IMG/VR virus record: IMGVR_UViG_3300025131_000013
Span: 1-64,000 of that record
Source: a virus
Direction: 5' to 3' (one strand)
Length of the DNA stretch: 64,000 nt
Below the pieces are notes generated by a model. It was given only the letters and a program-made list of their open reading frames with translations, was not told the origin of the DNA and searched no databases. The translations under genes were made by a program, and so were the position numbers. Positions 15,934-39,065 of the stretch are shown one piece after another (the stretch's first letter is position 1; every line of letters starts with the position of its first letter).

Positions 15934-16683
15934 GTGATGACGGAGAGAGCGAAGAAACTGCTGGCGGGGCGTAGTCTGCCCCGCTTTGTAGAGGAATTTG
16001 CTACCTCGGCTGAGCCGATAGACGGGCACCAGGGTGGCGGCGTTCCCTACTTGAACTTCTTGGCCGACCGTATTTGGAAGTTGGCCGAGAGGATGAATGG
16101 CGATAACCCCTCTGGATATCGAATATCAAAGTATGCTGAGGGAGTAAATCTTGAACATCAGCCAGATACGATTGAGGAAGCTACCCGGACAGTCCTGACT
16201 GATGAGGAGATGTATTCGGTTCCGTTTGAAGCCGGGGATGGACGAGGTGAAAAGAGTATCCTGGCTGCGAGACTCTACTCTTGGATGGCAGCCAGATACT
16301 ATGAGGAGTGTGAATCGAAGGAAGATCACAACCTGGAAAAGATCCCGCTGGATATCGAAGTTGACGTAGGCGGTGAAGTATTCCTCGCTGTTACGCTGAA
16401 GTATGGGGATAAGTCATTCTCCTTTGAACTAGACGAGTGGTTCGCTGGCTTTAGCTATAATGGATCTCTTGATCCTAATGGCGAAACGATTGATTCGTAT
16501 GATCGTTTTTGGTCCGACTACGCTGTAAGGCCGAAGGTTGATTCGCTAAAGAAGATGAGCGGAGAAGATGTTCTTAAGGCCGGATACAGCGAAGGATGGC
16601 TGAAAGAAGGAGTAGATGAATACGTGGCTATTCCTAATCCTGGAGTAGCTGGAGGCGTAACTATTGTTTCTTTGGAGGCTTAG
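15934..16683 (+). CDS. Hypothetical protein
   Basis: 249-aa ORF with SD. Confidence 0.7.
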   Translation: MMTERAKKLLAGRSLPRFVEEFATSAEPIDGHQGGGVPYLNFLADRIWKLAERMNGDNPSGYRISKYAEGVNLEHQPDTIEEATRTVLTDEEMYSVPFEAGDGRGEKSILAARLYSWMAARYYEECESKEDHNLEKIPLDIEVDVGGEVFLAVTLKYGDKSFSFELDEWFAGFSYNGSLDPNGETIDSYDRFWSDYAVRPKVDSLKKMSGEDVLKAGYSEGWLKEGVDEYVAIPNPGVAGGVTIVSLEA

Positions 16684-17319
16684 ATGGAACGAGTCGATGT
16701 GGAAGCGAAAGACTTCAAGCATCTGCTGGCCGCCTTCCTAGAGGGCCAGATGGAGGACCACGCGCCCGGTGTTTGGGTTGATATCGAAGGGAAGATTGAT
16801 ATTGTCCCGGCGGGGGAATCGTGGATGAGCGTTCGGTTGGACTTCGGTGATACGCCCTTTCTGTTCGAGATTGATACGTCCAAAGAAGATATCCAGATGT
16901 TCGAGGAACGGAAGGATGAGTTAGCTGAGGTAGTCCAAGCGAGGGCGTTGCTACGGGACGGTTGGCGCGCCGACGATTCCGCTGCTAAACCGGAATACTG
17001 CACTCATTCGATCTTTGACCCTAAAGGTGGCGCCTCGTGTGTGATCCCTCCGGGAGTATTTGACGAGATGGTGAAGATCCAGAATCGGGATGAGGATACC
17101 CCGAATGGCTGTATTGTCTCGGAGTCGGGTGTGAAAGTAGTTCCGGTTGTCGAGGCGACCGTAGTTGCCGCCCAGAAGCTCTATGACGAGGGATACCGCA
17201 ACTACCCAGCGAGGGAAGGCTTCTGGATCTACAGGACGGATGAGAACCAGAACGACGATGCCCAAGAAATAAGCCAGGCTACCTGGAGCGCGCTACTTGC
17301 TCTGGAGGATCGACACTAG
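16684..17319 (+). CDS. Hypothetical protein
   Basis: 211-aa ORF with SD. Confidence 0.7.
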   Translation: MERVDVEAKDFKHLLAAFLEGQMEDHAPGVWVDIEGKIDIVPAGESWMSVRLDFGDTPFLFEIDTSKEDIQMFEERKDELAEVVQARALLRDGWRADDSAAKPEYCTHSIFDPKGGASCVIPPGVFDEMVKIQNRDEDTPNGCIVSESGVKVVPVVEATVVAAQKLYDEGYRNYPAREGFWIYRTDENQNDDAQEISQATWSALLALEDRH

Positions 17320-17364
17320 AAGGTGAGGGTGAGTAGAGATTCCAATAATCAGAAAGGAGAAGTA

Positions 17365-17757
17365 ATGAACTGGGAACTTAACCGTAAACTGGAGAGGATA
17401 GCAGTGTATGCCGTCCTTAAGATGCTCTCGGATGATGAATGGAAGCCTTACCGCGTAGATGATGGGTGCGAAGATATCGGTATAAACAGGGTGACCGATA
17501 TCCACGAGGCATATCGCGCTGTGATGGCGGTAGACGAATCGTATGTCAACCTCAAGAAGGTAACTGCTGGTGTCCCTCCTAAGACTACGATTGGTTGGGT
17601 GCGGTTCGTTATGGGTAACGACCCGGACGAGGTGGTGTGCGACTATACTACCTCAATTGAGACTCTCGACCATGTTGACGTAAAGGATCTGATTGACGAG
17701 CAGCTCGACCGTATTCTGGATGAATATTTATACGAATACTTACACAACGTAGCTTAA
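17365..17757 (+). CDS. Hypothetical protein
   Basis: GWVRFVMGND..EVVCDY; AAGGAG SD. Confidence 0.7.
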   Translation: MNWELNRKLERIAVYAVLKMLSDDEWKPYRVDDGCEDIGINRVTDIHEAYRAVMAVDESYVNLKKVTAGVPPKTTIGWVRFVMGNDPDEVVCDYTTSIETLDHVDVKDLIDEQLDRILDEYLYEYLHNVA

Positions 17758-18124
17758 GGGGGTTTTGATGCAGGCAATTCTCAGTGGTACCAATGGCTAA
17801 AAACATCTTTTCCCGTAGGGAGGAAACATAGCAACCAATGGGCAAAAAGAAATTCGGGATGAGAAATGATGGGAAGGAAAGAAAGGTCAGCCCTAAAGAA
17901 TGTGAGGTATGCTGAGGGAGGTGTAGGACTAAGGTGGATGACGTATACTTAATGCTATGTAGCGTATATCGTCCTATATGTAGGAGTGCGTCTATGGCGT
18001 AGGGTTACGGACTATGACTGGATGTGGTATGATGACGACTGTAATATGATCTGCCTAGTCTTTACTGCTGTAGTTATGCTCGTGGGGTGGTTAGGACTAG
18101 AGTGCCTTATGTTCCTCTCCCACT

Positions 18125-18199
18125 CTCCCCGCTGAATCCTCTCATTATCAATCTAGCTCCCCGCTGAATCCTCTCATTATCAATCTAGCTCCCCGCTGA
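18125..18199. repeat. Perfect 32-bp tandem repeat (2.3 copies)
   Basis: CTCCCCGCTGAATCCTCTCATTATCAATCTAG twice, then CTCCCCGCTGA. Confidence 0.95.
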
Positions 18200-18229
18200 T
18201 GTGAGACACCGCTCGACTTCCCTCCTGGC

Positions 18230-18478
18230 ACTCAGTCACACACCCACACTGGGTTGATTGGATGATTGGCACGATGCCCAGCTGGCTGTGTTTTCAGTCA
18301 ACCGGCAGTAATCACAATTGACGTGCCTTATCAGCACCAAACCGCACCAAACAGGACTGGCCATTCAGTCAACCAGGCAAGTTTGGGTTGCTGAATGGTG
18401 AATTTAACCATCCAGTCAACCATGCAAGTCTGGGTTGTTGAATGTTGAATGGTGGATGCTGCTGGTTGTTGGTTGGGT
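18230..18478. repeat. CA/TG-rich block 1 with CAGTCAAC motifs and an imperfect 47-bp tandem duplication
   Basis: CAGTCAAC at 18295, 18366 and 18413; the last two start near-identical units. Confidence 0.8.
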
Positions 18479-18491
18479 CCGGCCCGGATGT

Positions 18492-18530
18492 GGAAAGGGG
18501 GTCGACCTTGGAGCTGGCCGACCCCCTTCC
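18492..18530 (-). terminator. Hairpin at the 3' end of the minus-strand gene
   Basis: GGAA(A)GGGGGTCG/CGACCCCCTTCC. Confidence 0.55.
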
Positions 18531-18532
18531 TG

Positions 18533-18862
18533 CTAGTTCTGCTTCTTCTCCCGTGGCTTACCGGGAGCTACCGCCACATAGTTCCCGTTCTCCAATCGGG
18601 TAACTACCACCCGCCTCTTCGCACGGACGACGAAATTGGCGTAGAATAGCGGGTTGGCGATACCCGCCTCGGTCAGCTTTTCGAGCCAATCGACCTTACT
18701 GATTCCCGTTTTTCCCGCGTCCTGGAGAATCTGCCAGGCTCGGTTGCGACCCTCGCTGCGCTTAAACGGTGATCGCGCGTTGTGGTACGGGAGTGCGGAA
18801 CTGCCGAGACTCTCAGCGAGACTCGGAACGACCTGCGGCTGCTTCTTACTCTGGGTGCCCAT
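18533..18862 (-). CDS. Putative winged-helix nucleoid-like protein, minimal form (paralog C)
   Basis: RNRAWQILQDAGKTGISKVDW...RRVVV...GNYVAVAP; GAGGAG SD before MGTQ. Confidence 0.8.
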   Translation of the reverse strand: MGTQSKKQPQVVPSLAESLGSSALPYHNARSPFKRSEGRNRAWQILQDAGKTGISKVDWLEKLTEAGIANPLFYANFVVRAKRRVVVTRLENGNYVAVAPGKPREKKQN

Positions 18863-18910
18863 ATCGGACTCCTCATTTTTAGGTCTGAGGCCTATCCCCG
18901 ACCTGCATTT

Positions 18911-18939
18911 AATATAACGGATTCGCACTGAGATTCCTA
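18911..18939 (-). promoter_or_regulatory. Conserved early promoter copy (TAGGAA-N17-TATATT), minus strand
   Basis: Reverse complement matches the motif; upstream of paralog C. Confidence 0.75.
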
Positions 18940-18972
18940 ATGAAATCTTCGCTTTCAGCGAAAAAAGTTTCG

Positions 18973-19157
18973 CTGGATGATGCCCGATATATCAGAGATT
19001 TCAGTCAACGGGTGGCGTGGGCTGTGGTGTGCGGTGTTGTTGTATAGGGATTTCAGTCAACGCCGGGCGCTGATGTTGCGCGCGGTGTTGTATAGGCATC
19101 AAGCTGCACCAACGCGCCCCGGACATATGCTTGATGGTGGCTGATGGTGGCTGGTGG
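18973..19157. repeat. CA/TG-rich block 2 between two divergent promoters
   Basis: GATTTCAGTCAACG at ~18997 and ~19049, GCGGTGTTG..TATAGG twice, TGATGGTGGC repeats. Confidence 0.75.
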
Positions 19158-19179
19158 AAAAAAAAAGTTTCTGTTGGGC

Positions 19180-19208
19180 TAGGATTCCAGTTGTCGATTC
19201 GCTATCTT
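19180..19208 (+). promoter_or_regulatory. Conserved early promoter copy (TAGGAT-N17-TATCTT)
   Basis: Motif match with an upstream A-tract. Confidence 0.8.
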
Positions 19209-19251
19209 TAAATAGGTAGAGAATCCGCTCTACCTAAACGAAGGGAACGAG

Positions 19252-19458
19252 ATGGATATCCCTATTCTTAGGGGGATCGTAAAGTCCAGCGTATTAGAGC
19301 TAGACGGTTGCGTTAACGAATACGGAGTAGAGGTTGATGTATGCTCCGGAGGCGGCCCCAACGCGGGAGGCGTTACGATCCAGCTTCGGATTCCAGATCG
19401 AGACGAAATCTCGATTAGACTTCAGAACGACGGAATCTTCACGGTAGTCGAACTCTAA
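19252..19458 (+). CDS. Small early protein
   Basis: Follows a promoter copy; followed by a UUCG hairpin. Confidence 0.65.
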   Translation: MDIPILRGIVKSSVLELDGCVNEYGVEVDVCSGGGPNAGGVTIQLRIPDRDEISIRLQNDGIFTVVEL

Positions 19459-19465
19459 CCTCAAC

Positions 19466-19487
19466 GGGCGGGACTTCGGTCCCGCCC
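19466..19487 (+). other. GC-rich cUUCGg hairpin
   Basis: GGGCGGGAC-TTCG-GTCCCGCCC. Confidence 0.7.
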
Positions 19488-19505
19488 AACGAAAGCGAGG
19501 GCGAT

Positions 19506-19760
19506 ATGGTGGATGGAGTAAAGGAAATGTTCGAGGGACTTTGCGGGTTTCTAAACGAGGTTACTGAAGGATGGTTCCTTGATATTAATCCTGTGTCGCC
19601 GATAACCGGGACTGTGACCCTTATCCCGAACGGAGAGGGATGGGTTGAGATGGTGATTTCAGTCGAAGGTAAGGAGTTTTCGGTGAAGGTGGACGCCTAC
19701 GGAAAGACCGGATGTGAGTATGGAGATCCTTCCCCCGAACGTAATTGCTTTGGAGGATAG
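19506..19760 (+). CDS. Small early protein
   Basis: GAGG SD; ORF track. Confidence 0.6.
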   Translation: MVDGVKEMFEGLCGFLNEVTEGWFLDINPVSPITGTVTLIPNGEGWVEMVISVEGKEFSVKVDAYGKTGCEYGDPSPERNCFGG

Positions 19761-19770
19761 GACGAGGAAG

Positions 19771-19948
19771 AACGATCCGTTGACTGGGATATTACTTATT
19801 CAGTCAACGGATCGTTGTTCGAGCTGGTAGGTATTGCTGGCTGCTGCTGGTTGCTGGTTGGCTTTCAGCCAGTCAGTCAGCTTCCAGTCAGTCAGCCAGT
19901 CAGCTTTCAGTCAGTCAGTCAGAAATCACAACCGGCATAGGGTAAGCA
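19771..19948. repeat. CA/TG-rich block 3: 16-bp inverted repeat, then (G/T)CTG and (CAGT)n tracts
   Basis: AACGATCCGTTGACTG (19771-86) / CAGTCAACGGATCGTT (19801-16); TG-rich 19824-19860 followed by CAGT repeats 19866-19921. Confidence 0.85.
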
Positions 19949-19966
19949 CGTTAGAAAAACTAAGTC

Positions 19967-20000
19967 CTACTACTTAGCCTTAAGCGATACTAAGTAGTAG
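19967..20000 (+). repeat. 34-bp palindromic site L (11-12-11)
   Basis: CTACTACTTAG-CCTTAAGCGATA-CTAAGTAGTAG. Confidence 0.85.
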
Positions 20001-20187
20001 TGGGAAAAATCTACCGGAAGAAAATTCTTAAGAAAAAGATTAGTTTCGCTTAAGGGAAAAATCTTCCTCTACGAAAATTATAAGACGTTCTACTACTTTT
20101 CCGCTTAAAGCGAAATCTATACCTAAAAGCGAAAAAAAGGCGAAAAAAGACGAGAAAATTTTTTTTACGAAAAGCGAAAAAAAACGC

Positions 20188-20216
20188 TAGACTCGACTAG
20201 TTTAATACCCTATACT
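20188..20216 (+). promoter_or_regulatory. sigma70-like promoter TAGACT-N17-TATACT free of CA/TG
   Basis: Near-consensus boxes, 17-nt spacer, upstream A-tracts. Confidence 0.7.
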
Positions 20217-20429
20217 TAGACCTACGAACCCTAACGAAAGGAAACGAAGAAAAGAGTAAAAAGAGTAGACTCTAGGCGAAGCGGGAACTTAGGCTTTCGC
20301 CCTTACTACCTAGAGTCCTACCGCCGGATTATCGGGATAACCCTTAAATATCCGGCTTAAAAGGTTCCTAGCTTACCGTAAAAAGCTAGACTCGATTTAT
20401 TTTTTTTTACTTCTCTTTAGGAGAAAAAA

Positions 20430-20978
20430 ATGTCTCTCGATATTACCCCCGTAGAGGCCGCCGTAGAGGTCCCCGTAGTCGGAGACTCTAAGGACGCCGG
20501 GATATACGCCTATAACCTTTTCGAAGTCGCCCGGATCGCCGTAGCGCGGCGTCCTAAAGACGCGAAAAAGGTTAAGGTAGGAACCGAAGATCGAGGCGGT
20601 TATACTAGTCCCGATCGATACGCGTCCTTCCGGCTCGCGTTTTCCCTCTCTCTAACGAATTCCGAAGCTAAACGGGTAGCTATCGTAGCGCGCTTCTCCG
20701 AGACGTTAAAGATTCGGAAACGGATCGTAGACGCCGGAATTCCCGTAGGGAAGGGTTATACCTATAAGGAACTCGCGTCTACCGCCGCCGCTCTACGCTA
20801 CGGCGAAAAGTACTCCGGGTTCGTAGCGTTTCGACCTAACGGTACTCGATTCGCCGTAGCGGAAAAAAACGAGCGTTTCTTTCTTTACGTAGTAAACGCG
20901 AACGGAGAGGTTTTCCCTAACCTTCCCGAATCGCTTAAGGTTAAGGAGGTCGAGGGGGAGCTAATAAAGGTAGAGTAA
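20430..20978 (+). CDS. 182-aa protein encoded without CA/TG dinucleotides (no Cys, His, Gln, Trp or internal Met)
   Basis: AGGAG SD, own promoter and terminator; composition is visible in the translation. Confidence 0.85.
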   Translation: MSLDITPVEAAVEVPVVGDSKDAGIYAYNLFEVARIAVARRPKDAKKVKVGTEDRGGYTSPDRYASFRLAFSLSLTNSEAKRVAIVARFSETLKIRKRIVDAGIPVGKGYTYKELASTAAALRYGEKYSGFVAFRPNGTRFAVAEKNERFFLYVVNANGEVFPNLPESLKVKEVEGELIKVE

Positions 20979-20987
20979 TAAATTCGA

Positions 20988-21021
20988 CTCCCGGTCCTAA
21001 CGGACCGGGGGTTTTTTTTTT
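20988..21021 (+). terminator. Intrinsic terminator
   Basis: CCCGGTCC-TAAC-GGACCGGG followed by T10. Confidence 0.9.
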
Positions 21022-21046
21022 AGCCTATAGGGAAGTTCCTTCCCTT

Positions 21047-21080
21047 CGACTACTTAGTATCGCTTAAGGTTAAGTAGAAC
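21047..21080 (-). repeat. 34-bp site R, inverted copy of site L
   Basis: CGACTACTTAG-TATCGCTTAAGG-TTAAGTAGAAC is 30/34 identical to the reverse complement of 19967..20000. Confidence 0.85.
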
Positions 21081-21290
21081 TAAGCAGAACGGGGTAGGGG
21101 TTAAACGCTAATTTCTTAGCTTTTAACGTCTCAATTGGTCTGCTTACATACACGTGCAATTTTTTGGTGAAATTTGCTTCAGGAGGGTGTTAGTGAGTAG
21201 CGAGGAATAAGAGGGCCACAGCACACCCAACGGTGACGATTACCGAACCTGGCGATTCAGCAATGATGGCGATTAGCGCGTTTAGGAGTT

Positions 21291-21548
21291 TCATAAGTCA
21301 ACATACTTTCCGATGCCAACTCTGCAAGGAGGCATCATAGGGTTGATTTTGAGCTCAAGCTGTTCGAACACTTCGTAGGCTTGAGCGTGGTTGGCCATGA
21401 GGAAGGAGACTATCTCAAGATCGGGGGTGATCTCTCTGAAGACCTCCTCAGATGGGGCCATAGCCTCAGTTGGCTTCTTACCGTGCTCCCGCATCTGTTC
21501 GATTAGGAGTATGAGTTTGTGGAGTGTAGCGCGGTTGTTTGGGGTCAT
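21291..21548 (-). CDS. Hypothetical protein
   Basis: Coupled (ATGA overlap) to 21545..22000. Confidence 0.6.
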   Translation of the reverse strand: MTPNNRATLHKLILLIEQMREHGKKPTEAMAPSEEVFREITPDLEIVSFLMANHAQAYEVFEQLELKINPMMPPCRVGIGKYVDL

Positions 21549-22000
21549 AGGTCTACCTTGCTGTCATCCTTTATAGCGAATAGTCCTGCTGGCTTTGGAT
21601 TTCTGAGTCGAGTGACTAACTGGACGCTATTGCCAGTGTAATAACCTCCCTGACTGATGTCGACAAATATATCTCTGTCTTCCTCATCAGTCCGGGTATG
21701 GAATCTTTTGTTTCTATTTGGGCGATGATAGTCAGGAGTGAGGCTTATCCTAAGTCCACCCTTCTCTTCGCCGGCATCCCCACTGGATGTATCTTCAATA
21801 CACCACTCTGAGCCATTGTTGAGAGTGATATAGAACTTTCGACGATTCTTGGCGAATCGCTTTTTCTTGTCCTCTTGAGGCGGCTTGATGCGTCTCCTCG
21901 GGGGATTCCGACTATTGTAATGTTCACGTCTGTTCTTTTCTTCAATGCTTTCTTTGCGGTCACCTCTAACCATATCCCAAATCTTCATCTTGTTCTCCAT
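21545..22000 (-). CDS. Basic hypothetical protein
   Basis: ORF track. Confidence 0.6.
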   Translation of the reverse strand: MENKMKIWDMVRGDRKESIEEKNRREHYNSRNPPRRRIKPPQEDKKKRFAKNRRKFYITLNNGSEWCIEDTSSGDAGEEKGGLRISLTPDYHRPNRNKRFHTRTDEEDRDIFVDISQGGYYTGNSVQLVTRLRNPKPAGLFAIKDDSKVDL

Positions 22001-22252
22001 TGAGGGTTCAAAGACTTTTTTTAGTAATTAGCTATACCATGCTGACGTCTGATGAATAGTGAAGGCCAGAGCTTTTCCAAGCCCTGGCCTTCTCAGGAGG
22101 TCCATATAGCCACGGCATTAGTCGCTTCATCCCGTAACTAAAATAAGTATACAAAGTTGTAGCTCGTGTAACGATCCGGGTCAGTCCGATGTATATTTTG
22201 TTGACGAGAACAAACCATCCAATGCTTTTAAAAAGTAGGAGAAATAATTAAG

Positions 22253-22663
22253 ATGCTTACTTTAAAGCAAAGACAAGAGCGAAAAGCTGAGCTAAGTGCT
22301 ATGAATAAGATTTATCTGGTGAATGAATTGGTTGACGCCGAAGACACAATTGCTCGCAAAGAAATGAACATCGCTGATAATGTTGATAGGTTGTCAGAAT
22401 ATAAGGGTAAGCTCAGAAACAATGAGCGTGTTGTTGTTACCCGTAAGAAGCGCAAGGGTGACATGGATAAAATGGCCATCAAGAAATGGAAGGAATTTAC
22501 TAAACTGCAGATATGGGTTAATATCTTGGCTGCTATACCCAACATACTGGGTGCAGCAGCCACAAACGAGTACACCCATTTTATGTTGGCACAGCTATTT
22601 ACTAATGCCGTTATTGGACCGGCCATTTTCTACTACCAAAAGAAGCAGGAGAGATTTGGATAG
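22253..22663 (+). CDS. Coiled-coil/membrane hypothetical protein
   Basis: AGGAG SD; hydrophobic C-terminus. Confidence 0.6.
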   Translation: MLTLKQRQERKAELSAMNKIYLVNELVDAEDTIARKEMNIADNVDRLSEYKGKLRNNERVVVTRKKRKGDMDKMAIKKWKEFTKLQIWVNILAAIPNILGAAATNEYTHFMLAQLFTNAVIGPAIFYYQKKQERFG

Positions 22664-22804
22664 ACCTAAGAAAGCTGACGGCAATGTTATTTTTTTGTTT
22701 TACCCGGCTAGGCAGTATTTATTTGACTGGTATAGGGAATCGAGACCGATGATGCCTTAAGGGTTTGGGTAATGGCTGACCTTAGCAGAAATTAAGGAAG
22801 GTGA

Positions 22805-24622
22805 ATGTCTAGTTTGACCCACAAAAAAAAGAAAAGAAACAAAAAGACTGATCCTGGGGCTTTGCTTCGGGGTGAGCTTTCCAAGCACTTTGGCCTAGAT
22901 GTTGATGAGAGAGCAAACCTTGGATCGGAAAGCGAGGCTAAACAGTTCTTAGAAGAGCAAGATGAGATTTGGGATGAATATCCGGTGACATCAAGTATCT
23001 TCTTTGAGGATTGGATTCGAGAAAAGATGTACCCAATCCAACAGGAGCTGTGCGATGCCGTGCTGGGTGTACTTCCTACAGAGTGGCCTAACGACTTTGA
23101 GGAGGCATTTGCCTTATGGGGTAAGGGGTCAGGTAAGGATAGAACGTCTGCTAAGATGTGTGTCTATCAAGGATACCGGCTGATGTGTATGAGAGACCCT
23201 CACGCCTTCTTTAAGCAGAGCCAGATAGACATCGCCAATATGTCGAGGAATTCTCGACAGGCCAAGAAGGTTTATTTCAATAACCTCAAGGAGGTGGTCC
23301 GAAGATGTTTTGATCCCGCTACCAAGAAGAATTGGTTTGAGGAGCGGGGTGTTGATCTTCGGGAGCAGAAAGATATTCAGTCCGCCGAGATCCGTTTATG
23401 TGGGGCTCACAACGAAGCCCACCATATAGAGCAGGATATAACCTGTCATTCTTTGGATTCAGAGCAGAATACGGGTGAGGGCTTTAACCTGTTCTTCTCG
23501 GTCTTGGATGAGCTTGGAGACTTTGCTGTAGGTAATGGAATAGAGCTTCACGAGGCTATCACAGAAACAACAGTCTCCCGGTATGAGGGTTATGGTAAGG
23601 TAATTGCGATCTCGTTCATGTATAATAAGAGCGACCCATTCCAAATTATCTGGGCTCAGACTAAGGGTGATCCAAAGGTCTTCCAATCTGGACCCCACGC
23701 TACATGGGATGTGAATCTTGGAAGATCAAAAACTTCATTCTCCAGACACTACAAGCGCAATCCTATTCGTGCGCGTAGAGTTTATGAATGCAAAGTGGAT
23801 GATAAACGTTCAGGACTTATCAAGCTCAGATCGGTGGTGGAAAGGATTTTTAATAACGGTGATGTCCTCAATCCCGTTGCCGGTGGTTCTCCTGTCGTCG
23901 GATATTATCCTGAGATTATATCATCACCTGAGACTGTGAAGGCCTTGAGGTTTACGGAGCATTTCAAGCCTAAATCTTCCGCGTGCTATACGGTCCATAT
24001 TGATCTTGCTAAGGGTAAGGCCAAAGGTGACTCCGTAGGATTCTGTATGGCTCACCCGGAGAGAATGAAAGGCTATATAGATGAGGGGATGAAGAAGCTC
24101 TGGGTTCAGATGGGGAATGCTGTCGATACTGAGGAGGAAGTATCCAAAGGCGTAGTGTTCGATCTTATGCTAGGTATAAGGGGAGCAGACGCGACTCAGG
24201 AAGTCCGGTTGGCCGAGATTCGACAACTCATCTATCGTCTCAAGTTTGAGATGAGCTTTAATATCATCAAGGTTACAATGGATGGCTACCAATCAGCTGA
24301 TACGATACAGGAGTTAAATGAAAGGGGAATCCCAACCGAACTGTTATCGGTAGATAGAACTCCAGACCCTTACGAATCTCTTGTTGATTTAGCTTACCAG
24401 GGGCTTGCAAAGGCTTACCCTCATGTTGTTGCCCTAAGAGAGCTAGATGAGGTCGACAATGATGGTAAAACAGGCAAAATCGACCATCCTGCCCTGTCTC
24501 TTGTCCGAATGGCAGAGGAAGGGTTTGAAAAAGGTAGCAAAGATGTTTCGGACGCTATGGCGGGGGCCAGTTATACGTGTATTAGGGACATTCCACTTGA
24601 TTCGGGTGTCTTCTTTGGATAA
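22805..24622 (+). CDS. terL: Terminase large subunit
   Basis: Walker A WGKGSGKD, Walker B SVLDE, nuclease motifs HIDLA, MDGYQS, KIDHP...SKDVSDA. Confidence 0.92.
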   Translation: MSSLTHKKKKRNKKTDPGALLRGELSKHFGLDVDERANLGSESEAKQFLEEQDEIWDEYPVTSSIFFEDWIREKMYPIQQELCDAVLGVLPTEWPNDFEEAFALWGKGSGKDRTSAKMCVYQGYRLMCMRDPHAFFKQSQIDIANMSRNSRQAKKVYFNNLKEVVRRCFDPATKKNWFEERGVDLREQKDIQSAEIRLCGAHNEAHHIEQDITCHSLDSEQNTGEGFNLFFSVLDELGDFAVGNGIELHEAITETTVSRYEGYGKVIAISFMYNKSDPFQIIWAQTKGDPKVFQSGPHATWDVNLGRSKTSFSRHYKRNPIRARRVYECKVDDKRSGLIKLRSVVERIFNNGDVLNPVAGGSPVVGYYPEIISSPETVKALRFTEHFKPKSSACYTVHIDLAKGKAKGDSVGFCMAHPERMKGYIDEGMKKLWVQMGNAVDTEEEVSKGVVFDLMLGIRGADATQEVRLAEIRQLIYRLKFEMSFNIIKVTMDGYQSADTIQELNERGIPTELLSVDRTPDPYESLVDLAYQGLAKAYPHVVALRELDEVDNDGKTGKIDHPALSLVRMAEEGFEKGSKDVSDAMAGASYTCIRDIPLDSGVFFG

Positions 24623-24636
24623 GAGGGGTTAAGAGC

Positions 24637-25086
24637 ATGGAAGAGATAGAAGTCAAGGATGAAGATTGTGATTTAATAGGTGATGGGAGTGAAATATTTG
24701 ATGCTCAGGCCGAAATAGATAAGATTTCAGCTGAAATTGATCCAAAACAACTTAAAAAGCCAGAAAAGAGATCAAAAGAGATAGATTGGCGTGATAAATA
24801 CCGTGCAAAACGGTATTTGGCTCGTTCTAAGGAGTATTTGGCTACTAAATGGGTTGTTTTGCGCAGAAACTGGCTCAACTTACCGGGTTTTGCGGCAATT
24901 TTCACCAATACGCTTAGTGTTTTCACAGTAATAATGATGGGCCTTGCAATGTATTATTCGGTAGGCCACCTCAGGAACGGGGCTAATTTCACCCTTATTA
25001 TTGCGGGTGCGGTCCTAATTGGTGTTATCGGATGGACTAATAGTAGGATTGGCGATGCCCCGAATGAGAAAGACGACAGCCAATAA
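24637..25086 (+). CDS. Membrane protein (2 TM)
   Basis: Hydrophobic C-terminal half. Confidence 0.6.
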   Translation: MEEIEVKDEDCDLIGDGSEIFDAQAEIDKISAEIDPKQLKKPEKRSKEIDWRDKYRAKRYLARSKEYLATKWVVLRRNWLNLPGFAAIFTNTLSVFTVIMMGLAMYYSVGHLRNGANFTLIIAGAVLIGVIGWTNSRIGDAPNEKDDSQ

Positions 25087-25113
25087 GAGCACCCATTAGC
25101 AGGAGATTGCTCA

Positions 25114-25422
25114 ATGGAGCGCGGCCTTCACGACCACGATATATCTGGTAAAAAACCATCTTGTATCCAAAAAATAATAAAAACAATCCTTAAACCATTC
25201 ATCATGTTGAAAAATATATTAGATGGTAATTGGTGGGCAGAAAAGATTGCAAATAAAACAGGCATATATGATATAGCAAAAGAATCAAAAATACGCTTGT
25301 GGGCTTTAGGACTAACAGGATGGCGTTACTGGGCCTATCAAATAGGTGGTGGCATACTGTTTGTTATAATAATAGAGACTATATTAAACCAAATCAATCT
25401 TTCTATATTACCATGGAGATGA
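25114..25422 (+). CDS. AT-rich membrane protein
   Basis: AGGAG SD; low GC; Trp-rich. Confidence 0.55.
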   Translation: MERGLHDHDISGKKPSCIQKIIKTILKPFIMLKNILDGNWWAEKIANKTGIYDIAKESKIRLWALGLTGWRYWAYQIGGGILFVIIIETILNQINLSILPWR

Positions 25423-25602
25423 AGGCAGCAGCCAAGGCTAATTCTGACACCAAGAGATAGGCAATGGCTCTACAAACACTTATATTTGATTCCTTTATAG
25501 CTATTCCGCTAAATCAGAGACACGCCTTCCCTTCTATTGGTGTCAAGAAGAGGGCACAGGGAAAGTCACTCAAGGATGGCGGGGACAAAAGAAAGTGAAG
25601 CA

Positions 25603-25977
25603 ATGTCTTCCGAGAATGGTCAAAATGCTCCAATCACTCGTCGAGAAGGAGATAGAATATGGAAAACTGTCGACGAGCTCAAAAAGGAAGTAGTAGACAG
25701 GCATGATGACGTTCGTGAGAACTTCAGATTGGTGTTTAACAAGTTAGATAAAGTCAGGAAAGAGTTCTCGCGCTGCCCGATTTATGCTAAAACCTTAAAT
25801 GATGTCGAAGAACGCGTTGGTGAGCTTGAAGGTGAGTGCAGTAAGATGAAGGTTGAGGTTTACGGAAATCAGCAAAATAGGTTCTCGAAAGGTCTGGGGG
25901 TATTTACTCAGACTGTTACAGTTTGCGCTGTTTTGATAGGCGGCGTCTGGTTCTTAATCACGAAAGTAGCCCAATGA
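25603..25977 (+). CDS. Coiled-coil protein with C-terminal TM (holin/XhlA-like)
   Basis: Coiled coil plus terminal TM; start inferred. Confidence 0.5.
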   Translation: MSSENGQNAPITRREGDRIWKTVDELKKEVVDRHDDVRENFRLVFNKLDKVRKEFSRCPIYAKTLNDVEERVGELEGECSKMKVEVYGNQQNRFSKGLGVFTQTVTVCAVLIGGVWFLITKVAQ

Positions 25978-27497
25978 TTTCCCTACTGAAAATCGCTACC
26001 AATCGGGGCAGTAAACCGGGGAGCAAAAAGAGCTTCCTTTCTGAAGATGACGCTTCAATAGGCTTGGGCTCAGCAGGAGGAAAGCTATTAGGGAAGTCCA
26101 AAGGCCTCAGGTCTGACCAGATGTGGAAGATGTATGAGCGGAATATCTGGGTCAGATCCTGTGTGGATCGGATTGCCAAGAAGATTGCTGCCACTCCTCC
26201 TATTATAAGAGGGTTTAACAAGAAGGATGCTAATACCTCTTTGACGAGTCGTCAGAAGCGACAAAAGGAACGTTTGGAGGAAATCTTTGAGAATCCTAAT
26301 AACAATGATCAGAATTGGTCGAACTTCCGTGAGGTATCTACAAAGGACATCTTGATCTACGGGCATACTGGGGTGGAGTTAGTTCCTGATCTAGTGTCTG
26401 GTGAGATCGTTGAGGTATATAACGTCACCGGATCAGAGATTCGACCCAATTTTAACTCTAGGGGTCAGTTTAAGAATGCTCAAGATGCTTACCGACAGTA
26501 TCAGCGCGGTTCTGTAGTAGCCAAATTCCCCAGGGATGAGTTTCTTTGGATGCGTGGAGAGTCGGTATCACATTCAGTTATGCCTGTCTCTCCTCTTGAA
26601 ACTTTGAGACAAACGGTGACGGCTGAACTTTACGCCTCCCAGCATAATCTTGATTTCTTTGCAAATAACGCCACCCCGCGATTGGCAGTCATGTTCGACA
26701 ATGTCGGACAGGGCCAGGGTGCTGGTGCTCTTGATAGAGCTAAATCTTGGTGGAATCGGGAACTTCTTGGACAGCCCCACAAGCCGATCTTTATGGGATC
26801 TGAACAAGGCTCGGTTAAACTTGAGACGCTTAATGTAAATAATCGGGATATGGAGTTTCAGGCCTATACTTCGTGGCTGTTGATGAAGATCATGGCGGTC
26901 TACCGTTTACAGCCTGTGGTTCTAGGAGTTATATTGGACGGCAACCAATCCAAGTTAAATTCCGCTCAGCAGATCCAGCTGTTCAAGGAGGATGCGCTTA
27001 AGCCCCAGCTTGATCTGTTCCGTGACGCCTGGACAACTAAGGTGATCTGGAATGCCTTCGGATATGATTCCTTATTCTTAGAGTTTCAGGGATTTGATCT
27101 CTGGGATGCGCAGGAGAAGGCGATCTGGCACGAGAGGTATCTGAGATCTGGAGTCTTTACGATCAATCAGGTTTTGGATGAACTCGGAATGGAGCCTGTG
27201 CCTTGGGGTGATGTTCCTTACATAGCCTCCAATCTTCAGGAATTAGGCGGGGAGGAAAACAGGACTGGGGATGCTGAGTCTTCTCCGCCATCGGCTGATT
27301 CTCCTTCATCTGAGACGGATGCCTCTAGGGAAGGTGATGCCAGACAATCAGCTCGTAAGTCTATGGCTGCTTCTGCTTCTTTGAGAGAGATAGGGGTGAG
27401 TGAGTCTCAGCTGAAAGAAGCCGGTTTGCGTCTCAGGAAGCAACACGGTAGTTTCCATGATAGGCTTATCAGTTTTCCTAAGTCGATGACCGCATAA
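25974..27497 (+). CDS. Portal protein (HK97 family)
   Basis: VRSCVDRIA, NPN, SPLETL, FFANNATP, DMEF, GVFTINQV..LGMEPVPWGD. Confidence 0.92.
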   Translation: MISLLKIATNRGSKPGSKKSFLSEDDASIGLGSAGGKLLGKSKGLRSDQMWKMYERNIWVRSCVDRIAKKIAATPPIIRGFNKKDANTSLTSRQKRQKERLEEIFENPNNNDQNWSNFREVSTKDILIYGHTGVELVPDLVSGEIVEVYNVTGSEIRPNFNSRGQFKNAQDAYRQYQRGSVVAKFPRDEFLWMRGESVSHSVMPVSPLETLRQTVTAELYASQHNLDFFANNATPRLAVMFDNVGQGQGAGALDRAKSWWNRELLGQPHKPIFMGSEQGSVKLETLNVNNRDMEFQAYTSWLLMKIMAVYRLQPVVLGVILDGNQSKLNSAQQIQLFKEDALKPQLDLFRDAWTTKVIWNAFGYDSLFLEFQGFDLWDAQEKAIWHERYLRSGVFTINQVLDELGMEPVPWGDVPYIASNLQELGGEENRTGDAESSPPSADSPSSETDASREGDARQSARKSMAASASLREIGVSESQLKEAGLRLRKQHGSFHDRLISFPKSMTA

Positions 27498-27570
27498 TAC
27501 AACTCTCTTAGTTTGATTTGAAGAAGTAACGCAAATTGCGCTGGTATACTGGATCATCGAGGCAAAATTT

Positions 27571-28731
27571 ATGAACATCCCAGATACAGCACCAGAGGGC
27601 GTCAAGATCGCGTTCCGTAAAGGCGGATGGGGTGCCGTTGAAAGGAAGTATCGGGTCACTCAAAAGAATGAGATGACTCATTTTCTCAGGAGAAAGACTG
27701 AAGTTCCTTTGCCAGGAGAGGGCTATACGAATCAAGCAGACCTTCCTGATGATGTTCAGGAGTTGCCCGGATCTGCAACCCTATATTGGATGGAGTGTTA
27801 TAACTTTGCTCTGAGTCATCACTATCCTGAGAAAGCTAAGGACGCGGCTTGGAAGGCCATTAAAAAGCGGTATTACAATAAAAAGGGTGCTTGGAGGATG
27901 AAGATGGAGAATTTGGAGAAAGTTGGCTCATTCAAGGCGAGTATGATCGCCAAGGTTCGTAAGGTTGAGAAAGATGGCGAGCCTGATCAGTTCTTTATAG
28001 AGGGAAAAGCCTCAGATACTTCGATTGATCTGGAAGATGATCGAATGGGTCCAGAGTTCATCAAGACGATGCGGGAAACTGCTGTCGGCCTCAACCTTTA
28101 TGTGGATCACGATCATACGCTCGACAAGACTATCGGAGTGATAGTCGAATCGGATGGTGATGATGACAACTTCTTCATCAAGGCACGCCTTGAAAGTCCT
28201 GAGAGTAATTCTCATGTAGCTTCGATTATCAGCAAATCCGAAGCGGGTATTCAGATCGGCTTTTCTATTGGTGGTCGAATCCTTAAGGCTGTAAAGCAGC
28301 ACGCTGAAGAGATTGGTAGAGCGGTCCGCACAATCGTTAAAGGCGTCTTAGCGGAAGTATCTGTTACCACAATGCCTGCCAACCCCAACGCTAGAACTTC
28401 TTCATTATCTCTCGCAAAGTCACTACACGGTGCACTTGATGATCTGGAAGAAGATGGGACCTTTGATCCCGATGACGCAGAGATCATCAAGATCCTAGAA
28501 GAAGTATTTGAGATGGATCAGGTTCGTGCTGCTTTGAGTCGGCTGACCTGGTCGTTTATTGACCTTACGCTGGATATTGTCCACTCTGACGATCTCGCTC
28601 CTGGTGCCAAGCAGGACAAGATTATAGAAGTGTCGAGTGAGTTCGCTACGGCAATATCTTCACTGTCCACCAAATTAGCAGATTTTATCGCAGGACAAGA
28701 TGACTTCCTGGAGGCAAGCGAGGCCGCTTAG
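27571..28731 (+). CDS. Prohead maturation protease with N-terminal ChaB-like domain
   Basis: IEGKAS..SIDLEDD, HDH..TIG, GFSIGG, LAEVSVTTMPANP; N-terminal DLP..VQELP...YN.A....AAWKAIKKRY..KKG.W. Confidence 0.85.
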   Translation: MNIPDTAPEGVKIAFRKGGWGAVERKYRVTQKNEMTHFLRRKTEVPLPGEGYTNQADLPDDVQELPGSATLYWMECYNFALSHHYPEKAKDAAWKAIKKRYYNKKGAWRMKMENLEKVGSFKASMIAKVRKVEKDGEPDQFFIEGKASDTSIDLEDDRMGPEFIKTMRETAVGLNLYVDHDHTLDKTIGVIVESDGDDDNFFIKARLESPESNSHVASIISKSEAGIQIGFSIGGRILKAVKQHAEEIGRAVRTIVKGVLAEVSVTTMPANPNARTSSLSLAKSLHGALDDLEEDGTFDPDDAEIIKILEEVFEMDQVRAALSRLTWSFIDLTLDIVHSDDLAPGAKQDKIIEVSSEFATAISSLSTKLADFIAGQDDFLEASEAA

Positions 28732-28761
28732 CATACCCAGGTTGCAAAAGGAGGTGAAAAC

Positions 28762-29337
28762 GTGACAGATAAAACCAAACAGAGCTTGGCTGATTCCATC
28801 GGGTCGATGATTACGAAAGCAATCGCGACAGGGGAAGTGCCTGAGGAGGAGACTCCGAAAACTGCCTCAACCGAAGAAATCACCAAGTCCGTGACCGAGG
28901 GTGTTCTGGCCCAGTTGGCAGATAGTCCGGTTTTTAAGGCGATTGCGGGAGCGCAGACGCCGGCAGAACCAGATCCGAACGCTGACATTAAGAAGTATGT
29001 CCGGCGTTACGTCCGTAAAGCGGTCCAGGAGGCTTCTGAAGTCCTCAGTATCGAAATCATCAAGGGTGTTTCGACATCTGTGATGGAAATGTTCGGTGGC
29101 GAGGAGCAGATCAAGAAACTGAATAAGATCGGCTCTAAGCTCAAGGTTGTCGGGACCAAGAAATCTCAGGCCCCGGTTGACGATGGTGAGGATGACGGCG
29201 AAGAAGATGAGGTTGTCGAGAAGAAGTCCAAGAAGTTTGCCAAACGAGATGCTCGTAGGGAGTCCGGTAAGCGTGGGACTGAAGAGCAACTCGATAAGCA
29301 CTTGGGCAAGATGGCCAGAGAAGCGTTGAAAGGCTAA
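28762..29337 (+). CDS. Scaffold-like protein
   Basis: Lies between protease and MCP; charged and helical. Confidence 0.65.
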   Translation: MTDKTKQSLADSIGSMITKAIATGEVPEEETPKTASTEEITKSVTEGVLAQLADSPVFKAIAGAQTPAEPDPNADIKKYVRRYVRKAVQEASEVLSIEIIKGVSTSVMEMFGGEEQIKKLNKIGSKLKVVGTKKSQAPVDDGEDDGEEDEVVEKKSKKFAKRDARRESGKRGTEEQLDKHLGKMAREALKG

Positions 29338-39061: not shown

Positions 39062-39065
39062 TAAG

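What the first reader, a model, noticed from the sequence alone, without database searches (positions are those of the whole stretch)
19949..21084. 1.1-kb cassette essentially free of the CA/TG dinucleotide on both strands
A line-by-line scan finds no CA between 19949 and 21084 and only two TG: 20001 and the obligatory ATG at 20430. Roughly 140 would be expected at uniform composition. The depletion covers the promoter, leader, CDS and terminator, and ends abruptly (CA at 19947 and 21085; dense CA/TG from 21132). Because CA and TG are reverse complements, selection acts on double-stranded DNA rather than on codons or mRNA. Inference, two alternatives: (a) the segment must escape host systems whose targets contain CA/TG (many m6A-type restriction-modification motifs, CCA-type phosphorothioation, some PAMs); or (b) the virion DNA is modified in the CA/TG context and this unit must stay unmodified so host RNA polymerase can read it first.
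Basis: partly seen in the sequence, partly recalled or inferred. Interest (0 to 1): 0.96.

Follow-up and report, generated by a model that had tools for sequence, protein, structure and literature searches.

The report
Phage gene cassette purged of CA/TG
An uncultured marine phage and its nearest relative each keep one small, self-contained gene cassette completely free of the DNA step CA/TG, at the cost of five amino acids and, in the relative, the normal ATG start codon. Something still unidentified must therefore act on that two-letter step in double-stranded DNA during infection.

Summary
Window 19949-21084 has 0 CA and 2 TG (20001, and the ATG at 20430), against about 141 expected. It is unique in the 93.5-kb phage genome.

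It is selected, not chance:
- The protein lacks Cys, His, Gln, Trp and internal Met.
- Synonymous codons avoid CA/TG: 0 seen, 52±5 expected.
- Codon junctions avoid it: 0 seen, 30±4 expected.
- 584 nt of non-coding DNA carry one TG.

A syntenic relative (TerL 82% identical) has a homologous 1,597-nt cassette with no CA/TG at all. Its ORF can only start at a non-NTG codon, most likely ATT. Distant homologues at about 30-35% identity also lack, or nearly lack, the five residues.

Both cassettes are bracketed by inverted repeats and share the motifs TCGCTTAAGGTTA and GCTAGACT. Each encodes an orphan protein with an acidic tail and a basic core that weakly resembles a winged helix.

General restriction-site avoidance is ruled out. 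My best guess (about 0.3) is that the cassette stays free of a mark the phage puts on its own DNA at TG. Such thymine hypermodification is published for other phages. However, I found no modification enzyme here, and two phages known to modify TG have no such island. A nuclease that reads CA/TG is the main rival.

Earlier notes of this scan report the same phenomenon in Wifcevirus and soil phages. I found no publication describing it.

The parts
19949..21084 (.). CA/TG-free zone (0 CA, 2 TG in 1,136 nt). It coincides with the cassette bounded by the inverted repeats.
19970..20007 (.). Left arm of the 38-nt inverted repeat (87% complementary to the right arm). The arm is itself a palindrome, CTACTTAG-N12-CTAAGTAG, and contains the stray TG at 20001.
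   Evidence: read directly
21040..21077 (.). Right arm of the inverted repeat. Weaker similarity continues to 21084, the last base before the first CA.
20122..20185 (+). Array of A-tract repeats (AAAAGCGAAAAAAA-like) upstream of the promoter-like site.
   Evidence: families D1, D3
20188..20216 (+). Promoter-like site TAGACT-17-TATACT, which also reads as TAGA-N19-TATACTTA like the phage's early promoter family. GCTAGACT (20186-20193) recurs at 20385-20392 and occurs twice in the relative's cassette. A natural variant changes TATACT to TAGATT, which keeps TAnnnT.
20217..20418 (+). Long leader of about 200 nt. Its first block, CTAACGAAAGG..AAACGAA..AGTAAAA, is shared with the relative (L030:3859).
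   Evidence: inference for the transcription start
20419..20423 (+). Shine-Dalgarno sequence AGGAG, with a 6-nt spacer before the ATG.
   Evidence: read
20430..20978 (+). ORF of 182 aa with no Cys, His, Gln, Trp or internal Met. It has an acidic N-terminal tail (net -4) and a basic core (net +10). It belongs to an orphan family and gives weak winged-helix-like fold matches.
20986..21021 (+). Intrinsic terminator-like hairpin (12 pairs, 8 of them G-C) followed by a run of T.
20046..20058 (+). A copy of the shared motif TCGCTTAAGG(TTA). Further copies lie at 20931-20944 (inside the 3' end of the ORF), 21060-21073, and inverted at 19978-19987. The relative carries it at L030:3481 and 3634.
19835..19930 (.). 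CA/TG-rich microsatellite block, (CTG)n-like then (CAGT)n, abutting the left border (29 CA/TG in 19801-19950, O/E 1.54). Its length varies among natural strains (indels of 3, 15 and 3 nt).
19201..19500 (+). Neighbouring small unit (ORF 19252-19458), partly depleted of CA/TG (O/E 0.33-0.38).

Best explanation
What is shown (about 0.95). This is a self-contained expression cassette: boundary inverted repeat, repeat-rich upstream region, promoter-like site, long leader, ribosome-binding site, one 182-aa ORF, terminator, boundary inverted repeat. It sits between the phage's early gene region and the short minus-strand block that precedes the terminase genes. Strong, long-lasting purifying selection removes every CA:TG step from its duplex DNA. 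Its product is a small orphan protein with an acidic tail and a basic core that is probably a nucleic-acid-binding, winged-helix-like domain.

Mechanism I commit to (inferred, about 0.3). The packaged chromosome carries a post-replicative mark in the TG/CA step, most plausibly a hypermodified thymine, as published for several other phages. Because the cassette has no such step on either strand, it is the one expression unit that never carries the TG-context mark. At the start of infection it would therefore be transcribed without hindrance. It would also offer no site to nucleases that depend on modified bases, so its DNA-binding product can be made before, or regardless of, what happens to the marked DNA. 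Three steps are not shown: that this phage's DNA is modified, when the cassette is expressed, and what the protein does.
For: Selection on duplex DNA:
- 0 CA and 2 TG against about 141 expected.
- 0 against 52±5 under synonymous back-translation, and 0 against 30±4 at codon junctions.
- 1 against about 69 expected in 584 nt of non-coding DNA.
- Ten natural substitutions create no CA/TG, although 33% of random substitutions would.

Conservation:
- The syntenic relative L030/G006 (TerL 82% aa identity, core genes about 70% nt identity) has 1,597 nt with 0 CA/TG.
- Its homologous ORF is 51% identical and lacks the same five residues.
- That ORF has no possible NTG start. The best candidate is ATT at L030:4056, behind AAGGGG.
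- Homologues P0003 and P0005 (about 32-35% identity) have none of C, H, Q, W or internal M (P = 4e-10 and 8e-13). P0002 and P0010 have 2 and 4 such residues against 17 and 20 expected.

Not generic restriction avoidance.

Precedent for a TG-context mark:
- alpha-dapT almost fully occupies TG (PMC13458397).
- The 5hmdU DNA kinase of phage M6 modifies TG (PMC6449724).
- Pbunaviruses carry sugar-derived hypermodified T in a TG motif. They are attacked early in infection by END nucleases, which depend on modification and which phage inhibitors counter (bioRxiv 10.1101/2025.03.31.646159).
- Wifcevirus, a distant relative of Pbunavirus (PMC11990801), has a CA/TG-poor island and homologues of the Pbunavirus ThyX, kinase-like gp58 and neighbouring genes.

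In this phage: a ThyX-like gene lies next to a glycosyltransferase and an FAD oxidoreductase (672-3948), and several other sugar enzymes are present.

Protein: in two separate models nearly all top structural matches are winged-helix domains, though weakly (Z up to 4.3). The core is basic.
Against: - Pfam and NCBIfam scans of about 60 ORFs found no DNA methyltransferase, DpdA, aGPT-Pplase or 5hmdU DNA kinase. tblastn with the M6 modification cluster and with 14-1 gp58 found nothing.
- The sugar enzymes may serve virion glycosylation instead.
- Two phages with experimentally shown TG-context thymine modification have no CA/TG-free island. M6 dips only to O/E 0.40 in two intergenic 200-nt windows. 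14-1 has none, and its anti-END gene gp88 has O/E 1.01.
- If all T were first replaced by 5hmdU at the nucleotide level, the cassette would still not be plain DNA.
- The physical genome ends and the order of DNA entry are unknown. The contig ends are an assembly break.
- The cassette's promoter resembles the phage's own early promoters, so nothing shows that it is read first.
- An earlier check in this scan priced the same idea for Wifcevirus at 27/100.
Confidence: 0.3

Rival explanations
1. Cut-proof cassette. A nuclease active during infection needs an unmodified CA:TG step. It could be a host defence, or the phage's own enzyme for degrading host DNA. The cassette has no such step and cannot be cut, so it keeps being expressed. 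In the extreme case it survives as a discrete fragment whose ends are set by the CA/TG-rich flanks and the terminal inverted repeats.
For: - The purge is total rather than partial, as expected if a single site is harmful.
- The borders are abrupt and coincide with the inverted repeats.
- CA/TG-rich arrays abut the left border in both phages.
- The unit is complete from promoter to terminator.
- Generic restriction avoidance is excluded, which points to an agent specific to this step.
- Earlier notes report similar islands in unrelated phage lineages.
Against: - To my knowledge no nuclease or restriction system with a bare CA/TG specificity is known.
- A host system would have to protect about one step in eight of its own DNA.
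- No candidate nuclease gene was recognised in this phage.
- Cutting the rest of the phage genome would still be fatal unless DNA entry is stepwise or the benefit goes to co-infecting phages.
- The order of entry is unknown.
Confidence: 0.22
2. Immunity to its own product, or to another phage silencer. The winged-helix-like protein, or another phage DNA-binding protein, binds or bends DNA at CA:TG steps and shuts down transcription of host and early phage DNA. Its own gene carries no such step and so escapes.
For: - The protein has a basic core, weak winged-helix matches and, in homologues, Lys-rich tails.
- The phage's early promoters carry a conserved CAG..TG in the spacer, which the cassette's promoter lacks.
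- CAGTCA(A/G) arrays lie in the neighbouring non-coding blocks of both phages.
Against: - No DNA-binding test was done, and the fold assignment is weak.
- According to earlier notes, islands in other phage lineages encode unrelated small acidic proteins, so the product cannot be the general agent.
- A two-base specificity for a repressor is unusual.
Confidence: 0.1
3. RNA-level constraint. Both the sense transcript and an antisense transcript (read-through from the convergent minus-strand block) must lack a dinucleotide that a ribonuclease or RNA sensor targets.
For: The cassette is convergent with the minus-strand genes in both phages. Loss of the AUG start in the relative would also fit avoidance of UG in RNA.
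Against: - The purge extends about 240 nt (window) to about 270 nt or more (relative) upstream of the promoter-like site, and beyond the terminator.
- CA and UG share no single-strand chemistry that would leave out UA and CG, which are enriched.
- No RNA data exist.
Confidence: 0.06
4. Avoidance of the preferred T|G scission step of type IIA topoisomerases (gyrase, topoisomerase IV). The cassette then cannot be broken when gyrase is poisoned, or it forms a domain free of gyrase sites.
For: From my own knowledge of classic gyrase cleavage-site studies, not tested here: gyrase prefers to cut between T and G. Gyrase is universal, which would fit the occurrence of such islands in phages of very different hosts.
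Against: Gyrase specificity is degenerate, so a total purge seems excessive. Nothing in this genome points to a gyrase poison. No test was possible.
Confidence: 0.04
5. The composition is a passive signature. Either it is a foreign mobile element bounded by terminal inverted repeats, or it results from a RIP-like mutational process (C to T at CpA).
For: Terminal inverted repeats in both phages. TA is enriched.
Against: - The ORF is intact although CAA, CAG and TGG would mutate to stop codons.
- CG is enriched even more than TA.
- The cassette holds the same syntenic position in two diverged genomes.
- There is no transposase and no clear target-site duplication.
- Natural variants still avoid CA/TG.
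- Homologues at about 30% identity keep the amino-acid exclusion.
- GC content is near the genome's (45% against 48%).
Confidence: 0.03

Closest known systems
Motif-poor leading DNA with anti-restriction genes: the phage T7 leader with gene 0.3 (ocr), and the phage T5 first-step-transfer region without EcoRI sites (own knowledge)
   Same: A short stretch of phage DNA with its own strong expression signals lacks sequences that would expose it to an enzyme acting on DNA. It lies near the terminase-proximal junction, where genome ends often are.
   Different: Here the avoided word is a single dinucleotide step, removed completely. The cost is five amino acids and, in the relative, the ATG start. 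Ordinary restriction palindromes are not avoided. The T5 first-step-transfer DNA has normal CA/TG content. The physical end, the timing of expression and any anti-restriction function are not shown for this phage.
TG-context thymine hypermodification of phage DNA: alpha-dapT in phage SH-Ab 15599, 5-NedU in M6, and sugar-derived T in Pbunavirus F8 and 14-1 (PMC13458397, PMC6449724, bioRxiv 10.1101/2025.03.31.646159)
   Same: It is a known phage activity that reads exactly this dinucleotide in duplex DNA. It gives a concrete reason why TG/CA on both strands could matter.
   Different: No enzyme of that pathway was recognised in this phage apart from a ThyX-like protein shared with Pbunavirus at 28% identity. 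M6 and 14-1 themselves have no CA/TG-free island.
CA/TG-poor early-gene islands noted earlier in this scan (Wifcevirus terminal repeats; soil phage early cassettes)
   Same: The same dinucleotide is purged, the same amino acids are avoided, CpG is enriched, the units are small and strongly signalled, and in soil phages non-ATG starts (ATT or ATC) are reported. I confirmed partial depletion in Wifcevirus ECML-117 (O/E 0.16-0.45 over about 1.6 kb).
   Different: This is a different phage lineage (a marine siphovirus-like phage, terminase only 26-28% identical to any isolate) and a different encoded protein. The purge is complete rather than partial. Those notes are unpublished AI notes, not independent evidence.
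Morons: autonomous promoter-gene-terminator units inserted between phage gene blocks
   Same: One gene with its own promoter-like site and terminator sits between two gene blocks.
   Different: Morons are recognised by atypical composition of foreign origin. Here the composition is actively maintained, and the unit is syntenic and vertically conserved.

Membership tests
Leading-end (first-entry) anti-restriction region of the T7 or T5 type | Lies at the physical end of the packaged genome that enters the cell first | not testable with these tools
   Only assembled contigs of public runs were available. The contig ends are an assembly break, bridged in the relative. The position next to the block upstream of the terminase genes is suggestive only.
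Leading-end (first-entry) anti-restriction region of the T7 or T5 type | Avoids recognition sites of restriction enzymes in general | tested here: not met
   Palindromic 4-mers: 84 seen against 63 expected. Palindromic 6-mers: 20 against 14. GATC, GAATTC, CTTAAG, CCGG and TCGA are all present.
Leading-end (first-entry) anti-restriction region of the T7 or T5 type | Expressed first, from host-type promoters | tested here: inconclusive
   One consensus match, TAGACT-17-TATACT (9 of 12). It also fits the phage's own early promoter family, TAGG-N19-TAnnTTTA. No RNA run is listed.
Thymidine hypermodification system (5hmdU pathway with TG preference) | A dUMP hydroxymethylase, or an equivalent source of 5hmdU | tested here: inconclusive
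   Only a ThyX-like protein (window 3034-3948) was found. It scores 85.1 bits against the TIGR02170 cut-off of 87.9 and is 28% identical to 14-1 gp60. Its activity is unknown.
Thymidine hypermodification system (5hmdU pathway with TG preference) | A 5hmdU DNA kinase and an aGPT-Pplase-type transferase | tested here: inconclusive
   Pfam and NCBIfam gave no hit for about 60 ORFs. tblastn with the M6 cluster and with 14-1 gp58 gave no hit. Many ORFs are orphans, so absence is not proven.
Thymidine hypermodification system (5hmdU pathway with TG preference) | A modified base is present in virion DNA in the TG context | not testable with these tools
   This needs LC-MS, or raw nanopore or SMRT signal. 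The phage is uncultured.
Winged-helix DNA-binding proteins | A three-helix bundle plus a beta-hairpin wing, with significant structural similarity | tested here: inconclusive
   The AlphaFold core (residues 45-165) has pLDDT 65-95. Nearly all top VIA-align matches are winged-helix domains, but Z is at most 4.3. Foldseek, Pfam, PHROGs and a PDB profile search gave nothing.
IS or MITE-like mobile element | Terminal inverted repeats | tested here: met
   38-nt inverted repeats, 87% complementary. The relative has 25-nt inverted repeats, 80% complementary.
IS or MITE-like mobile element | A transposase, target-site duplication, or copies at other sites | tested here: not met
   The single ORF is no transposase. 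There is one copy per genome, at the same syntenic site in both phages. The apparent AACTAAG repeat is part of the extended inverted repeat.

The most novel reading that the evidence does not exclude
Across unrelated phage lineages (marine, enteric, soil) an as yet unknown class of enzyme or sensor reads the bare CA:TG step of duplex DNA during infection. Phages answer with "stealth" cassettes written in a reduced 14-dinucleotide, 15-amino-acid dialect, which carry their most time-critical genes. The inverted-repeat-bracketed cassette may even persist as a protected mini-chromosome when the rest of the DNA is attacked.
Probability: 0.25. Interest if true: 0.95.

Novelty: new variant of a known kind. 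Interest (0 to 1): 0.85.

Why it matters
Avoidance of 4-8-bp restriction sites by phages is textbook. A complete, local purge of a single dinucleotide is of another order. It reshapes a protein's amino-acid alphabet and, in a relative, replaces the ATG start.

It implies that an agent with two-base specificity acts on duplex DNA. This may be a context-specific DNA hypermodification whose cost to gene expression or to defence evasion has not been recognised, or a nuclease or sensor of a new kind.

The signature is trivial to compute. It could be used to find immediate-early or counter-defence genes in uncultured phages, and to predict which phages carry TG-context DNA marks.

The cassette also provides a natural example of a functional protein family built without Cys, His, Gln, Trp and internal Met.

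Tried and rejected
DNA of the distant homologues:
- Scans of viral contigs and metagenome contigs with these proteins found nothing. Their CA/TG status therefore rests on amino-acid composition alone.
- blastn and tblastn against isolated phages gave no match for the cassette or its protein.

Family and fold of the protein:
- Rfam gave nothing above noise, and the window has no tRNA genes.
- Pfam, PHROGs, a PDB profile search, the ESM Atlas and Foldseek against PDB and BFVD gave no family for the protein.

Expression and genome ends:
- No RNA holder is listed among the sequencing runs, so expression is untested.
- The laid runs were contigs only, so no read-start pile-ups and no termini could be seen. 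Their shared breaks at about 21130-21136 look like a mosaic boundary.

Other phages:
- Four distant portal relatives (GC 30-33%) have no CA/TG-free stretch.
- T5 first-step-transfer DNA is not depleted.
- I looked for a gene shared with Wifcevirus ECML-117 or Pbunavirus 14-1 that could be the agent. Only ThyX, Pol III alpha, a helicase and a tail-fibre piece are shared.

Ideas set aside:
- Chi-like GT-rich clusters left of the cassette could be an orientation clue. The strand bias is largely compositional and the host is unknown, so I dropped this.
- Strong sigma-70 consensus promoters are not concentrated near the cassette.
- A RIP-like mutational origin and synthetic origin are rejected. The ORF is intact, CG is enriched, and the cassette is present in more than 18 marine samples dated 2017-2024.
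Full report
**1. Observation**

Between 19947 and 21085 there is no CA, and the only TG are at 20001 and in the ATG at 20430. From base composition, 77.5 CA and 63.1 TG are expected in these 1,136 nt.

In the whole 93,475-bp genome the next longest CA/TG-free gap is 61 nt. No other dinucleotide class has anything comparable. The borders are sharp: O/E is 1.54 in the 150 nt to the left and 1.19 from 21151 on the right. CG (1.76), TA (1.34), AA, TT and CT take the place of CA/TG.

**2. It is selected, at every level**

- The 182-aa ORF (20430-20978) has no Cys, His, Gln, Trp or internal Met. These residues make up 10.3% of the phage's other proteins (P = 3e-9).
- Given its amino-acid sequence, back-translation with the genome's codon usage gives 52±5 CA/TG (minimum 33 in 5,000 trials). 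Zero are observed.
- Shuffling the order of its own codons gives 30±4 at codon junctions (minimum 15 in 20,000 trials). Zero are observed.
- The 584 non-coding nucleotides hold one TG against about 69 expected.
- In contigs from four other marine samples, ten substitutions fall inside the cassette. None creates CA/TG, although 33% of all possible substitutions would (P about 0.02).
- Because non-coding DNA and both strands are affected, the target is duplex DNA.

**3. The genome**

The contig is a siphovirus-like phage. It encodes a portal, prohead protease, tape-measure protein and terminase. It also has Pol III alpha, DnaB, a primase, RecA, SbcCD, a family-4 UDG, a ThyX-like protein and many sugar enzymes. 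Its terminase is only 26-28% identical to that of any isolated phage. The phage occurs in marine metagenomes of more than 18 samples.

Nearly all genes lie on the + strand. The cassette sits between the region of small early-type genes (5-19.8 kb) and a short minus-strand block (21291-22000) that precedes the terminase genes.

**4. A relative with DNA in hand**

IMG/VR contig 3300024259_000062 (L030, handle G006) has a TerL 82% identical to the window's and is syntenic at about 70% nucleotide identity. It bridges the ends of the window's contig, so those ends are an assembly break.

At the same position it carries 1,597 nt (L030:3256-4851) with no CA and no TG at all, against about 198 expected. 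Its ORF is 51% identical to the window's over 148 residues and again lacks the five residues. It diverges much faster than TerL.

Because the stretch holds no TG, no ATG, GTG or TTG start exists. The open frame runs from 4035 to 4712. The best start is ATT at 4056, eight bases behind AAGGGG. Synonymous back-translation predicts 73±6 CA/TG; zero are observed.

**5. Deeper conservation**

A full HMMER search of 1.8 billion representative proteins found four distant homologues at 29-35% identity, all from marine or metagenomic contigs.

| Protein | Length (aa) | C, H, Q, W or internal M | Expected | P |
|---|---|---|---|---|
| P0003 | 201 | 0 | 20.6 | 4e-10 |
| P0005 | 258 | 0 | 26.4 | 8e-13 |
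| P0002 | 164 | 2 | 16.8 | 4e-6 |
| P0010 | 192 | 4 | 19.7 | 1e-5 |

Their DNA could not be fetched. The amino-acid exclusion nevertheless shows that the constraint is old and travels with this gene family.

**6. Anatomy**

Both cassettes are bracketed by inverted repeats whose outer ends coincide with the CA/TG-free zone:
- Window: 19970-20007 and 21040-21077, 38 nt, 87% complementary. Each arm is itself a palindrome.
- Relative: 3271-3295 and 4824-4848, plus further pairs.

They share two motifs:
- TCGCTTAAGGTTA occurs three to four times in each cassette.
- GCTAGACT occurs twice in each cassette and only three times in the whole window genome.

The window's unit has these parts:
- A-tract repeats.
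- A promoter-like site, TAGACT-17-TATACT, at 20188-20216.
- A leader of about 200 nt.
- AGGAG followed by ATG.
- A double stop.
- A strong terminator-like hairpin at 20986-21013.

A natural variant changes the -10-like hexamer from TATACT to TAGATT, which keeps TAnnnT.

Read as TAGA-N19-TATACTTA, the site resembles the phage's own early promoter family. That family reads TAGG-N19-TAnnTTTA, has nine copies in the window, and has a related family in G006. The cassette's version lacks that family's conserved CAG..TG..GATTCG spacer. The cassette is therefore not clearly of a separate, host-type promoter class.

To the left lie CA/TG-rich microsatellite arrays, (CTG)n and (CAGT)n, whose length varies among strains. 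CAGTCA(A/G) elements also occur upstream in the relative.

**7. The protein**

It matches no Pfam, PHROG or PDB sequence family. It has an acidic, repeat-prone N-terminal tail: net -4 here and -22 in the relative. The distant homologues add Lys-rich stretches. The core is basic, at +10 and +12.

AlphaFold models built on alignments of 5 and 6 sequences give a confident core (pLDDT 65-95 over residues 45-165). It consists of helices followed by a beta hairpin. Foldseek finds nothing.

In an exhaustive VIA-align search nearly all top hits are winged-helix domains: RPA2, Fur, PadR, MecI, ORC2, Z-alpha/beta and histone H1. However, Z is only up to 4.3. I read this as a probable nucleic-acid-binding, winged-helix-like protein, not as a demonstrated one.

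**8. What it is not**

- It is not general restriction avoidance. Palindromes without CA/TG are at or above expectation.
- It is not a mutational (RIP-like) relic or a foreign insertion. The ORF is intact, CG is enriched more than TA, the position is syntenic, and selection is ongoing.
- It is not a property of leading DNA in the model phage T5, nor of four distant portal relatives.

**9. What could read CA/TG**

The literature search turned up a direct precedent:
- Post-replicative thymine hypermodification prefers TG. Alpha-dapT "almost fully" occupies TG in phage SH-Ab 15599 (PMC13458397).
- The 5hmdU DNA kinase of phage M6 modifies TG (PMC6449724).
- Pbunaviruses F8 and 14-1 carry sugar-derived hypermodified T in a TG motif on about a quarter of their thymines. 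They are attacked early in infection by modification-dependent END nucleases, unless a phage inhibitor is made (bioRxiv 10.1101/2025.03.31.646159).

Wifcevirus is a distant relative of Pbunavirus (PMC11990801). Earlier notes of this scan reported CA/TG-poor islands in it. I confirmed partial depletion in ECML-117 (O/E 0.16-0.45). I also found homologues there of the 14-1 ThyX, the kinase-like gp58 and neighbouring genes.

Three findings count against it:
- The marine phage has no recognisable kinase, transferase or DNA methyltransferase.
- It shares only a ThyX-like protein (28%) and Pol III alpha with 14-1.
- M6 and 14-1 themselves have no CA/TG-free island, and the anti-END gene gp88 of 14-1 has normal CA/TG content.

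I therefore rank the readings as follows:

| Reading | Probability |
|---|---|
| Cassette dodges the phage's own TG-context mark | about 0.3 |
| Cassette is proof against a nuclease that reads CA/TG | about 0.2 |
| Cassette is immune to its own product or to another phage silencer | about 0.1 |
| RNA-level constraint, gyrase cleavage step, passive signature | small remainders |

A substantial share is left for an agent nobody has described.

**10. Verdict**

The finding is real, extreme and conserved. As far as my searches reach, it is unpublished. This scan has noted the same phenomenon before in other phage lineages.

This case adds four things:
- The cleanest example so far: 0 CA/TG in 1.6 kb, with a non-NTG start.
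- A new, marine lineage.
- A gene family whose amino-acid alphabet records the constraint over deep divergence.
- A testable link to TG-context DNA hypermodification.

Noticed in passing
window 5365, 5849, 7405, 10300, 11315, 14641, 15595, 19180 (+) and 18939 (-); G006 16557-29249 (8 copies): A conserved phage promoter family reading TAGG(or CTTTAC)-N19-TA(c/t)CTTTA(A/G). In the window it has a CCAGnTG..GATTCG spacer, and each copy heads a run of small genes. In layout it resembles a Bacteroidota-type -33/-7 promoter (TTTG-N19-TAnnTTTG, recalled from my own knowledge) with the final G replaced by A. Yet the genes have strong Shine-Dalgarno sites, so the host stays unclear.
   Followed up: partly
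window 1-408 and genome 93322-93475; G006 8220-8545: The window contig starts and ends inside one ORF made of acidic GATGAC/GAGGAT codon repeats. The relative's contig runs straight through this point, so the ends are an assembly break and the genome map is circular or permuted.
   Followed up: yes
window 31262-39620, 672-3948, and genome 71338-73605: An unusually large set of sugar enzymes. A glycan island lies between the capsid and connector genes (including a GT4 glycosyltransferase). An FAD oxidoreductase, a CgeB-like glycosyltransferase and a ThyX-like protein form a cluster. A GT2 glycosyltransferase, a DUF5675 protein and a class-I SAM methyltransferase sit between DnaB and Pol III alpha. 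Whether they glycosylate the virion or the DNA is open.
   Followed up: partly
window 18128-18200, 18290-18480, 18995-19160: Non-coding blocks with direct repeats (a unit of about 32 nt repeated 2.5 times), CAGTCAAC elements, and GT-rich Chi-like runs (GATGGTGG twice and GCTGGTGG at 19133-19157). Similar CAGTCAG plus GGTGGTGG elements lie at G006 29060-29170. They are candidate origin, packaging or regulatory sites.
   Followed up: partly
L030 5081-9305 (- strand) against window 21291-22000 (- strand): The minus-strand block between the cassette and the terminase genes holds about 14 small ORFs in the relative but only 2 in the window. Contigs of three other samples break at about 21130-21136, so this is a mosaic, fast-changing region. 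A block of about 35 nt just right of the cassette, ACATACACG..AATTTTTTG.GTGA, is conserved in both phages.
   Followed up: no
window 20446-20469; L030 4121-4228: The N-terminal tail of the cassette protein evolves by tandem duplication. The window has a 12-nt repeat that is absent in variant P0001. The relative has an 18-nt repeat in 4-5 copies encoding DTEAVD. All copies remain CA/TG-free.
   Followed up: partly
window 7880-8311 and 11400-11954: An RNase H-like gene and a protein with a response-regulator receiver domain lie among the early genes.
   Followed up: no
Pseudomonas phage M6 (NC_007809) 3401-3600 and 29501-29700: In this phage, which modifies TG, the only CA/TG-poor spots (O/E 0.40-0.44) are two 200-nt intergenic windows ahead of gene blocks. 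They are possibly promoter regions kept poor in modifiable sites.
   Followed up: no
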